Assembly (NCBI GenBank): GCA_038127595.1 | Contig: JAYPIC010000005.1 | Location: 2,371-28,934, forward strand | Direction: 5' to 3' | Source: a bacterium | GTDB taxonomy: Bacteria > Fidelibacterota > Marinisomatia > Marinisomatales > UBA1611 | Length of the DNA: 26,564 nt | Part shown: positions 8,001 through 11,000 of the stretch, piece after piece | Layout of the letters: the number at the start of each line of letters is the position of its first letter | How positions within the stretch are numbered: the first letter of the stretch is position 1 | Made by a program: the position numbers

Positions 8001-11000
8001 CCTTTTGATGCAAATAGAGATGGATTCGTACTTAGTGAAGGAGCAGGAATGCTTGTAATTGAATCTGAAGAACATGCTTTAAAAAGAGGAGCTACTATAC
8101 TAGCAGAATTAGCTGGTTATGGTTCATCTGATGATGCGTTTCATATAACCCAACCTGCTCCAGAAGGCCTTGGAGCATTTAAAGCTATGAAAAGGGCATT
8201 AGAGGATGCATCGATTACCACTGATGACATAGATTACATTAATGCTCATGGTACGTCTACACCTTTTAATGATAAGAACGAATCAAAAGCAATTGGGAAC
8301 CTTTTCAAGGATACTTTGCATAAACTAAAAGTCAGTTCTACAAAGTCTATGACAGGTCATTTACTTGGAGCAGCAGGCGGTTTGGAGGCAGTTGCAACAG
8401 TTAAATCTATCGTTAACAGTAAGATAGCACCGACAATTAATTACAAAAACCCGGACCCCGAATGCACATTAGACTATACACCGAATAATGCTGTATCCCA
8501 TACTATCAATGCTGCACTATCTAATACATTTGGATTTGGAGGCCACAATGCTGTTTTATGTTTTAGGAAATATAATTGAGTCTATTATATAAACTTAAAA
8601 ACATACTCAAAACAGATGATCACCTCTCCCCTGTAGAAAAAAAAATTAACTATTTATTCCATAACCGTGAATATTTAGTTCAAGCATTCACCCACAAAAG
8701 TATTACCCCGTCCCCAAGAAAAAATTATGAGAGATTAGAATTTCTTGGTGATACTGTTATTGATTTAATAATAAGCAGAGAACTAATGAGAGAATTCCCA
8801 GAAGGCGATGAGGGCTTACTGACTCAAAGAAGAGCATCTTTAGTAAGAAAATCATTTTTAGCTCAAATCAGTAAAATGTTAGACCTAATTGATCATATTA
8901 ATATTGAAGCTAGCGTTAATATGAATATTGAAAAAATAGCAGAGAAGCAACAAGCAAATCTTTTCGAAGCTATCATTGGAGCAATCTATTTAGATGGTGG
9001 TATTGAACCTTGTAGAAATTTAATTTTAGATACAATTTGGGCCCATAGAACTGAGGCATGGAAATCTACTAATTATAAAGGTAAGCTGATTGAATATTGC
9101 CATATAAAAGAAATTGGAAGTCCATCATTTAATGTAAAAGATATCACTGGTCCTGACCATCAAAAAACATTTGAAATTGAAGTTAAGATTGATGATAGAT
9201 GTTTTCCAACAGGGATGGGATTAGATAAAAAATCGGCAGAACAAACAGCGGCAAAAATAGCTTTAGAAACGCTAAATGCCCCTTTTTAGTTAGATCACGA
9301 TTCTAGCTCTTTAATTTTATCTCTGATTTTTGCAGCTTTTTCATATTCTTCTTCATCTACTGCTTGCTTTAATTTGACCTCAAGATCTTCAAGGGAATAC
9401 TTTGGTATTATAGTTTGTTTATTATCAGAAACTATTTCGTTTTTATCAACCCCAGCCTCTCTAATAACCTCTTCAGTTACATATATTTGAGCACCTAATC
9501 TTAGAGCTATTGAAATAGCATCACTAGGCCTTGCATCAATATTCTTTGTACCAAAATTTTTACTTTTAATCTTCAAGCTTGCATAAAAAACCCCATCATT
9601 TAATTGTGATATATTTACTGCATCGAGTGTGGCATCAACTTTTTTAATCATATCACAAATAAGATCATGAGTTAACGGTCTTGGGGTGTCGACAACCTCA
9701 AGAGCCAATGCGATAGATTGAGCTTCAAAACTTCCAACTAAAATTGGTAAAAATAATTTGCTAGAATCATCTTTTAATATGACTGCATAGCTGCGACTAG
9801 ATGGGTGATATGATATTTTTTCTACTTTAACAGGTATCATTATATTTTTGATAATTTATCTTTTAATGTTTGGATATTTTTTACCGGACTAGGATCGGTA
9901 TTATGCAAAATTGCGCACCAGTAACTTAACCAATCTCCATAATGTATCAATAGTAAGAATCTTTCTTTGAAACTATTTCCATCAACTTTGATTTCTTGTT
10001 GGCTAACATTTAAACCTGATAAAATTTCACTAATAATATTCTTTCTAGATTTATTTCTGATATTCATTTCTTCGTCCATTAACCATAGAACATAGTAATT
10101 TGAGAAATATTTTTCATTATTCTCCCATCCAACAATTTCGTTATGATTCATCTCAGGATATATACTATGATATGCTAAAATTTTACTGTTTTCGCATATT
10201 TGCCCTTTTAATCTAACAGCCACTGTCTCCAAAGATCCGGAGTCAGCATATATAATGGGCAACTTATTGTATAATTTATTAGCTAATTGATATACAAGGT
10301 TATTTTCTTTATCTGAAGAATACTCTACCCTTTTTGATTTTATCAAATCAACTGAGGATTTTAACCAACTGCTGACTTCAACATTTATCAAACTAGTTTT
10401 TTTCAAAATGTATAGCAAAGGAATGAACGAAAAAGCTAAAGCAGCTCTGGGTTGAAGGCCAGAGGGTATATTGACAAAATCAAAGCTGTAGTTCTTACAA
10501 AGAGATTCTAAAACTCCTCCTGTAGTAATTCCAATCACCTTTGCACCTAAAGATTTAGCCTCTTCTAAAATTGAAATCGTTTCTTCTGTATTACCTGAAT
10601 AAGATGAACATATTATGAGAGTTGAACTGTTTGCCCAGGCAGGTAGATCATATCCTCTGTTTACAACGAAAGGTATTTTAATCTCATTTTTAATTAGAGA
10701 GTATACAACATCACCACCAATTGCTGACCCTCCCATGCCTGCAATGATTATATTATTCACATCTAGGTATTCATTTTTCAGTGTTATGTTTTCACTTAAT
10801 TTTATTGCATCAATTATATTTTCTGGAAAATCCCAAATGGATTGATACATATCGTCTTTATCAATTTCGTGCATTAATAATGTCTTCCTTGAATAAATTT
10901 AAAAAAACTGTATAATTCACTATTATTACCGATTCCAAATTTTGATAATGAATCATACGCATTAGAGAAATAATCAAAAGCTATTTTATCTACTTTATTT

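What a model noticed while it worked through the whole genome (the two positions that open the first line are those of the whole stretch)
8576..9289. Era GTPase is missing across the phylum Fidelibacterota
No Era gene is found here (rnc, its usual neighbour, is followed by a BFN-domain gene) or in almost any genome of the phylum, including closed 2-3 Mb free-living ones. With rnpA this is a second normally essential RNA-maturation factor that these bacteria do without.
Evidence so far: TIGR00436 at E<=1e-40: 2 of 71 phylum genomes, 0 of 25 in the class, control rings in all 10 bacteria; 0 of 5 near-closed order genomes; no Era row in the tables. rnc-BFN adjacency in 139 of 232 order genomes.
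(Added by a program. Inside this text positions count along the whole contig: contig position 2,371 is position 1 of the stretch shown here. "Call 12" and the like, gene names such as g00115 and contig names such as C1 are that model's own, and its searches are not shown. The text may have been shortened before it was handed on; [...] marks where a part breaks off. The agent that wrote the report below was given it as the finding of a first reader that could run no searches.)

Follow-up and report, generated by a model that had tools for sequence, protein, structure and literature searches.

The report
Bacterial phylum lacking Era GTPase
Almost all members of a widespread, mostly uncultured bacterial phylum with ordinary-sized genomes lack Era, a ribosome-assembly protein thought dispensable only in shrunken host-dependent bacteria, and two small lineages appear to have regained it from unrelated donors.

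Summary
Confirmed at genome level. The local argument is weak, and the rnpA pairing is overstated.

Era was found in 3 of 199 phylum genomes that are at least 90% complete; the control GTPase Obg was found in 189 of 199. Five single-contig genomes (1.0-3.4 Mb) have no Era GTPase and no Era-type KH domain. Era is present in 26 of 27 outgroup genomes.

The three exceptions are not inherited from a common ancestor. One is a probable flavobacterial contaminant. Two sit in nested lineages and group with Anaerolineae or with Omnitrophota-labelled Era (common origin rejected, p=0.0001). So Era was lost at or before the phylum's ancestor and regained twice.

The phylum keeps Era's binding site on 16S rRNA, plus YbeY (83/83) and RbfA (82/83). 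RsgA is patchy (25/83). The likely route is Era-free 30S assembly by YbeY, RbfA and KsgA; this is inferred, not shown.

rnc-era adjacency is not the norm in relatives (0 of 31 loci). rnpA is missing only in the window's order (43 of 44 genomes), not across the phylum.

Era loss is known in Chlamydia, CPR and Dependentiae. My searches found no report for this phylum, and no earlier scan note on it.

The parts
3722..4180 (+). yceD (DUF177), first gene of the cluster that ends in rnc
   Evidence: PF02620 E 4e-17
4202..4378 (+). rpmF (bL32); followed directly by fabH, with no plsX between
   Evidence: PF01783 E 1e-21; sequence
4432..5421 (+). fabH
   Evidence: TIGR00747 over cut-off
5403..6338 (+). 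fabD
   Evidence: TIGR00128 over cut-off
6328..7077 (+). fabG
   Evidence: TIGR01830 over cut-off
7095..7325 (+). acpP
   Evidence: PF00550 E 5e-16
7341..8579 (+). fabF
   Evidence: TIGR03150 over cut-off
8576..9289 (+). rnc, RNase III (catalytic domain + dsRBD), last gene of the cluster. It is the anchor of the finding; no era follows it.
   Evidence: TIGR02191 194 bits, cut-off 166; PF14622, PF00636, PF00035
9295..9840 (-). BFN-domain (DUF151) + UVR protein, converging on rnc, so not co-transcribed with it
   Evidence: PF02577 E 1e-38, PF02151 E 3e-9; strand

Best explanation
The era gene was deleted once, at or before the last common ancestor of the phylum, and was not replaced by a homologue (shown as absence; timing inferred from a tree). 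Two nested lineages later gained an intact era from unrelated donors: one genus an Anaerolineae-like copy, one small lineage an Omnitrophota-like copy (inferred from trees). The rest of the phylum builds the 30S subunit by an Era-free route (all steps inferred). YbeY still assists uS11 and platform closure. KsgA methylates h45. RbfA, the other type II KH factor of the 16S 3' region, alone gates the 3' tail, and is released by IF3 where RsgA is missing. Slow growth probably lowers the cost of slower platform folding. A hairpin that pairs the anti-Shine-Dalgarno sequence with the trailer may take over its shielding in the precursor. Odds: true loss about 0.9; two regains by transfer about 0.8; no dedicated replacement protein about 0.7; a role for the hairpin about 0.25.
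For: Absence: Era 3 of 199 against Obg 189 of 199 in the same genomes. In five single-contig genomes there is no Era-sized GTPase and no Era KH domain. Outgroups: 26 of 27 non-phylum genomes and 6 of 6 in a small outgroup phylum, one genome shared.

Timing: in the RpoB tree (35 rows) the phylum is one clade (100/100). Its deepest branch f24 has Era in 0 of 4 genomes. G161 groups (100/100) with families holding Era in 0 of 23. G017 is sister to Era-less G018.

Regains: in the Era tree (46 rows) G017 falls inside Chloroflexota (100/100), G161 with Omnitrophota-labelled proteins (98/97), and G071 is sister to Flavobacteriaceae (100/99). The AU test rejects one clade for the G161 and G017 types (p 0.00012). 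G017's Era recurs in a congener (92% over 144 aa). A G161-type Era is labelled Neomarinimicrobiota under three accessions.

Retained factors: YbeY 83 of 83, RbfA 82 of 83, KsgA 5 of 5, bS21 5 of 5, RimM 4 of 5. One 16S copy was found in 4 of 5 single-contig genomes, none in the fifth.

Published: Era and RbfA overlap in function (PMC9032327 passages). IF3 releases RbfA (PMC7145577 abstract). era and rbfA are complementary in some CPR classes (PMC12641178 passages).
Against: No compensating change was found that explains the tolerance. The Era site is intact (GGAUCACCUCC in 41 of 48 tails), 16S length is normal (about 1,555 nt), and RbfA, uS11 and uS7 look ordinary.

In E. coli, Era acts earlier than RbfA and its depletion damages the platform more (PMC10582724 section 20), so RbfA is not a like-for-like substitute.

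The hairpin is also present in 14 of 30 tails from an Ignavibacteria-containing class; its members tested carry Era.

Era trees are a poor guide to species history: Eras of the G199 phylum also fall outside the Bacteroidota group. The direction of transfer between Omnitrophota and the G161 lineage is not fixed.

Calditrichota and KSB1 were not sampled, so the loss may be older than the phylum. Genomes are related, so the counts are not independent events. No expression or growth data were examined.
Confidence: 0.68

Rival explanations
1. Non-orthologous displacement: era is truly gone, but an unrelated, lineage-specific RNA-binding protein does its job at the 30S platform.
For: The Era site and the partner YbeY are fully retained, and no ribosomal change explains the loss. 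Era acts at a step that RbfA does not cover in E. coli.
Against: No candidate turned up beside ybeY (12 loci, own locus), beside der (5 single-contig genomes) or beside rbfA, ksgA and rpsU in the own genome. The BFN gene is convergent, not co-transcribed. No systematic search for phylum-specific genes was run.
Confidence: 0.17
2. A hyper-diverged Era (pseudo-GTPase, or split into pieces) is present but below sequence detection.
For: An earlier scan note reports Era with altered G motifs in another phylum (e1-5226573; not checked here), so divergence happens. No fold-level screen was run.
Against: The KH domain was sought on its own with PF07650 and with profiles built from 77 and 31 Era sequences, and nothing significant was found. 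PF01926 hits in single-contig genomes could be assigned to other families: 10 doubtful ones were read and are RsgA-like, HydF-like, MnmE or Obg, the rest assigned by length and place. Obg, YbeY and RbfA in the same genomes are not unusually diverged.
Confidence: 0.06
3. Era was in the phylum's ancestor, the G161 lineage kept it, and it was lost many times elsewhere; the Omnitrophota-labelled copies came from this lineage.
For: G161's era lies on a 308-kb contig with matching GC and has 70%-identical relatives labelled Neomarinimicrobiota. Era trees resolve deep branches poorly.
Against: On the RpoB tree this needs at least four parallel losses, including the deepest branch and G161's own sister families. 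The G161 type does not group with Bacteroidota Era. The second genus of G161's family (86% complete) has no Era.
Confidence: 0.07
4. Artefact of incomplete assemblies or of the search threshold.
For: Most genomes are drafts. The own genome also lacks Obg. Only the top candidates were scored.
Against: Obg 189 of 199, YbeY 83 of 83 and RbfA 82 of 83 in the same sets. The absence holds in five single-contig genomes with all candidates scored. The same model finds Era at E<1e-49 in 26 of 27 outgroup genomes.
Confidence: 0.02

Closest known systems
Era loss in Chlamydia, Dependentiae and most CPR (Patescibacteria), as reviewed in PMC10582724 (section 5 read)
   Same: A whole lineage lacks recognisable era.
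   Different: The review calls these groups extremely genome-reduced, with simplified ribosomes. Here Era-less genomes span about 0.8-4.7 Mb, 16S is of normal length, and bS21, YbeY and RbfA are kept.
Patchy era in Planctomycetota, Elusimicrobiota and Synergistota (legend of Fig. 1 of PMC10582724)
   Same: Bacteria outside the reduced groups in which some species lack era. This is the nearest precedent and lowers the surprise.
   Different: Described as present in some species and absent in others. Here absence is the ancestral, near-universal state with rare regains.
era/rbfA complementarity and era gains in CPR classes (Amikura et al., PMC12641178; passages, one supplement file searched)
   Same: rbfA kept where era is missing; later gain of era in sub-lineages.
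   Different: That study's non-CPR set is RefSeq genomes only. No name of this phylum occurs in its text or in the supplement file held.
Viable era deletions in S. aureus, S. pneumoniae, M. tuberculosis and some B. subtilis strains (PMC10582724 section 5)
   Same: Shows 30S subunits can mature without Era.
   Different: These are laboratory mutants with severe defects, not a stable natural state.

Membership tests
RNase III (rnc), window 8576-9289 | RNase III catalytic domain followed by a dsRNA-binding domain, over the family cut-off | tested here: met
   TIGR02191 194 bits against cut-off 166; Pfam
Era family: any protein of the own genome or of five single-contig genomes | Single TRAFAC GTPase domain in a protein of about 300 aa | tested here: not met
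   TIGR00436 and PF01926 hits are other GTPases
Era family: any protein of the own genome or of five single-contig genomes | C-terminal Era-type type II KH domain | tested here: not met
   PF07650 over cut-off only on the uS3-sized frame; Era-KH profiles best E 0.38, 0.04 and 0.26
Era family: any protein of the own genome or of five single-contig genomes | Era fold in a protein with no sequence signal | not tested
   No proteome-wide fold screen was run
Era family: the G161 and G017 proteins | GTPase + KH_2 architecture, full-length match to TIGR00436 | tested here: met
   313 and 297 bits over positions 1-270; PF01926 + PF07650
Known Era-less lineages (Chlamydia/CPR/Dependentiae type) | era absent across the lineage | tested here: met
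   3 of 199 genomes; 4 of 401
Known Era-less lineages (Chlamydia/CPR/Dependentiae type) | Extreme genome reduction throughout | tested here: not met
   Era-less genomes of 2.8 and 3.4 Mb on one contig, and drafts up to 4.7 Mb; one family is about 1 Mb
Known Era-less lineages (Chlamydia/CPR/Dependentiae type) | Simplified ribosome: shortened rRNA, lost r-proteins, other 30S factors lost | tested here: not met
   16S about 1,555-1,573 nt by a rough count in 8 genomes; bS21 5/5, KsgA 5/5, RimM 4/5, YbeY 83/83, RbfA 82/83. The full r-protein set was not inventoried, and RsgA is missing in 58 of 83.
Known Era-less lineages (Chlamydia/CPR/Dependentiae type) | Obligate host-associated lifestyle | not testable with these tools
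   The cultured member needs muropeptides from other bacteria (PMC11652737); other members were not assessed

The most novel reading that the evidence does not exclude
The window's order matures its 30S subunit with neither of the two dedicated small-subunit GTPases: no Era or RsgA in 40 of 44 genomes at >=95% completeness, though a LepA-like protein remains. A hairpin in the precursor shields the anti-Shine-Dalgarno sequence in place of Era's KH domain. The same order processes tRNA with an RNase P RNA that has no RnpA and no HARP. RNA structure would thus have replaced two normally required protein cofactors in cells with ordinary genomes.
Probability: 0.25. Interest if true: 0.85.

Novelty: new variant of a known kind. 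Interest (0 to 1): 0.6.

Why it matters
The 2023 review holds that only extremely genome-reduced bacteria escaped dependence on Era. A whole phylum with ordinary genome sizes and an ordinary-looking 30S subunit contradicts that.

It also gives a natural experiment on an open question: what does Era do that YbeY, RbfA and KsgA cannot? One member is in culture, so pre-30S intermediates can be studied. Two lineages that regained era, each beside Era-less relatives, give paired comparisons.

In practice, Era is a poor completeness or phylogenetic marker for this phylum, and an era gene in one of its bins should be checked for contamination or transfer.

Tried and rejected
1. Local gene order as evidence: rejected. 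0 of 31 outgroup era loci have rnc nearby, and 4 have der. der in five single-contig genomes and ybeY in 12 phylum loci have no era beside them.

2. Changed 16S tail as the cause: rejected. Of 48 tails, 41 read GGAUCACCUCC, 5 GGAACACCUCC and 2 GGAUUACCUCC. These come from 50 loci fetched out of 75 genomes with a match; 2 loci were one-mismatch false hits and were dropped. The own assembly has no 16S 3' end.

3. Trailer hairpin as a specific adaptation: not shown. It is present in 48 of 48 tails here and 14 of 30 in the control class. It formed in 6 of 8 joined leader-trailer folds. Kin are not independent.

4. Altered RbfA, uS11 or uS7: nothing seen by eye. RbfA 23 of 25 rows, because my script picked a wrong frame in 2. 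uS11 13 of 20 genomes and uS7 9 of 20 were recovered by motif.

5. Loss of Shine-Dalgarno use: rejected for the own genome. The motif occurs in 186 of 1,090 crude gene starts against 56 in an upstream control window, peaking at -11/-10.

6. Obg loss: absent from the own genome but present in 189 of 199; treated as an assembly gap.

7. TIGR00436 'over cut-off' as a criterion: rejected, because Der passes by summing two domains.

8. First RpoB tree: discarded, because it held a wrong protein for the own genome; redone.

9. Sampling Calditrichota and KSB1 failed. The genome scan returned none by title, and three homologue searches listed none among the named hits in their top 120. That says nothing about those phyla.

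10. Literature. Searches showed no report of Era or RnpA loss in this phylum. 'Marinimicrobia' + 'GTPase Era' gave one unrelated paper (listing only); two searches were seen only to the top 20. The library lacks most subscription papers. Fig. 1 of PMC10582724 could not be seen, only its legend, and may show this phylum. bioRxiv supplements were closed. The absence is probably visible in public gene-distribution browsers (recalled, not checked).

Full report
What was asked. I checked the locus, the own genome, the phylum, outgroups, the exceptions and possible compensation. My searches used the tool's kinship groups; one genome titled Neomarinimicrobiota (G216) falls inside the same clade.

The locus. 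The ORF is RNase III (TIGR02191, 194 bits) at the end of yceD-rpmF-fabH-fabD-fabG-acpP-fabF-rnc. The BFN + UVR gene at 9295-9840 is on the minus strand and converges on rnc. This order says nothing about Era. Among 31 era loci from outgroup genomes, none had rnc within about 1.5 kb and 4 had der. The rnc-era pair is one of several neighbourhoods listed in PMC10582724 (section 5).

The own genome. It has 2.0 Mb in 133 contigs and is 95.8% complete. TIGR00436 and PF01926 hit only Der, MnmE, HflX, YchF, IF2 and elongation factors. PF07650 passes its cut-off once, on a uS3-sized frame. Profiles of the Era KH domain run with filters off over 13,254 six-frame ORFs gave best E 0.38 and 0.04 (a short stretch of an unrelated protein). 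This genome alone proves little, since it also lacks Obg.

The phylum. Among 199 genomes at least 90% complete, Era was found in 3: own order 1 of 103, rest of the class 0 of 36, other classes 2 of 60. Obg was found in 189 of the same 199. Among 401 genomes at least 50% complete, 7 passed E 1e-27; 4 are Era and 3 are Der. These two searches scored only the top 12 and top 6 candidates per genome. In five single-contig genomes (1.0, 2.1, 2.3, 2.8 and 3.4 Mb) all candidates were scored. PF01926 hits were assignable to other families (10 doubtful ones read), PF07650 passed only on the uS3-sized frame, and a 31-sequence Era-KH profile gave best E 0.26. In the outgroup control, 26 of 28 genomes carry Era. 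One miss is G216, itself a phylum member; the other is a draft of unknown completeness. A small outgroup phylum had 6 of 6.

The exceptions. G071's Era sits beside der on a 9.9-kb contig and is sister to a Flavobacteriaceae Era (100/99), while its RpoB nests in the own order. Its genus has 1 of 10. It is a probable contaminant. G017's Era falls inside Chloroflexota (100/100), with Anaerolineae as the nearest named hits. A congener carries a 92%-identical piece beside a similar oxidoreductase gene, so it is real for that genus, while the sister genome G018 (97% complete) lacks it. G161's Era lies on a 308-kb contig with matching GC. It groups with a protein labelled Neomarinimicrobiota under three accessions, and next with Omnitrophota-labelled proteins at about 65% identity. 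An AU test rejects one clade for the two types (p 0.00012). The group was chosen by taxonomy, but after the first tree had been seen; 23 of 67 rows were dropped and 2 added for run time.

Timing. An RpoB maximum-likelihood tree (35 rows; 34 of 38 queried genomes gave RpoB, plus the own genome) makes the phylum one clade (100/100), sister to Bacteroidota in this sample. The deepest branch has Era in 0 of 4 genomes. G161 groups with three families holding it in 0 of 23. The simplest reading is one loss at or before the common ancestor and two regains. It rests on one marker. Calditrichota and KSB1 were not sampled, so the loss may be older.

What is kept. In 83 genomes at least 95% complete: YbeY 83, RbfA 82, RsgA-family 25, one of them partial and below cut-off. 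The RsgA hits are patchy, lie in long frames, and number 4 of 44 in the own order. So 56 of 83 genomes have neither Era nor RsgA. KsgA was found in 5 of 5, bS21 in 5 of 5 and RimM in 4 of 5. The own genome has PNPase, an RNase R/II-family protein and NusA, and a 168-aa ORF in the rimP position upstream of nusA, not confirmed by a family search. The 16S tail keeps the Era site in 41 of 48 loci and has one-base variants in 7. Shine-Dalgarno motifs are enriched about threefold at gene starts. All 48 tails are followed by a short hairpin that pairs the anti-SD with the trailer, against 14 of 30 in the control class.

How it probably works. Shown: Era is absent, and its site and partner factors are retained. 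Published: Era helps close the platform with YbeY and uS11 before KsgA, RbfA and RsgA act (PMC10582724 section 20). It protects the anti-SD and overlaps with RbfA in function (PMC9032327 passages). IF3 can release RbfA (PMC7145577 abstract). Inferred: the phylum relies on YbeY, KsgA and RbfA, with IF3 replacing RsgA where that is missing, and slow growth makes the slower route affordable. The hairpin may shield the anti-SD. Against this, I found no change in RbfA, uS11, uS7 or 16S that explains the tolerance, and RbfA acts later than Era in E. coli. An unknown replacement protein remains the main rival.

The rnpA claim. PF00825 found 38 of 39 genomes outside the own order, but only 1 real hit in 44 inside it. 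That hit is on a 2.6-kb contig and resembles copies from another order; a second hit is spurious. In the own genome rpmH is followed after about 120 bases by yidC, and a profile from 20 phylum RnpA sequences finds nothing (best E 0.28). RNase P RNA is present in 5 of 5 genomes tested, 3 of them from the order, and HARP in 0 of 5. The double loss is thus a feature of the order, not the phylum.

What is known. The review names Dependentiae, Chlamydia and most CPR as the only groups that lost Era, calls them extremely genome-reduced, and lists patchy presence in Planctomycetota, Elusimicrobiota and Synergistota (the figure itself was not seen). 'Marinimicrobia' does not occur in it. Amikura et al. 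used RefSeq genomes for non-CPR bacteria and do not mention the phylum in the text or in the one supplement file held. Searches showed no report. Look-ups of earlier scan notes found none on Era loss.

Verdict. This is a real, well-controlled absence. It is a new variant of a known kind: Era loss is known, but not as the ancestral state of a phylum with ordinary genome sizes and an ordinary-looking small subunit, with regains by transfer. The mechanism is inferred only. Interest 0.6.

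Noticed in passing
own genome C18, rpmH at about 6990 (+); order-wide: RnpA is undetectable in 43 of 44 order genomes, while RNase P RNA is kept (3 of 3 order genomes tested) and HARP is absent (0 of 3). 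rpmH runs straight into yidC, with no yidD either. This may be more surprising than the Era loss.
   Followed up: partly
window 22371-23861 (-), in-frame TGA at about 23672: Secreted thioredoxin-like protein with a T9SS tail whose frame is interrupted by one TGA in a W-TGA-P-S-C motif. It is probably a selenoprotein: NF045500 hit below cut-off, read-through frame. SelA-like and SelB-like ORFs occur on contig C71 (recognised by eye).
   Followed up: partly
own genome and five single-contig genomes: No EngB/YihA-sized GTPase among PF01926 hits; no dedicated search was run.
   Followed up: no
genus g1 (G000, G115, G116, G117): Obg was found in only 1 of 4 genomes of the window's genus, against 189 of 199 in the phylum. 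In the own genome rplU-rpmA is not followed by obg. Probably assembly gaps, but G117 has only about 10 contigs.
   Followed up: no
L298 (G000:C1 about 107830-108083): bS21 of the own genome has an Arg-rich C-terminal extension of about 20 residues, not seen in four other phylum genomes. ksgA lies next to or near rpsU in G000, G046 and G070.
   Followed up: no
G046 (1.0 Mb, one contig, family f10): RimM was not found either, so this streamlined genome lacks Era, RsgA, RimM and RnpA. Its obg match is broken by stops, perhaps a sequencing error.
   Followed up: no
L059-L062, L070 (families f11, f12, f15); L071, L072: 16S tail variants GGAACACCUCC (5 loci) and GGAUUACCUCC (2 loci) alter the GAUCA motif that Era reads, possibly from relaxed selection. 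The GAACA form is recalled as common in Bacteroidota.
   Followed up: no
window 4202-4432: rpmF is followed directly by fabH, with no plsX between them.
   Followed up: no
L022, L027 (G002, G011): HydF-like GTPases (about 406 aa, recognised by eye) in two single-contig genomes of family f22.
   Followed up: no
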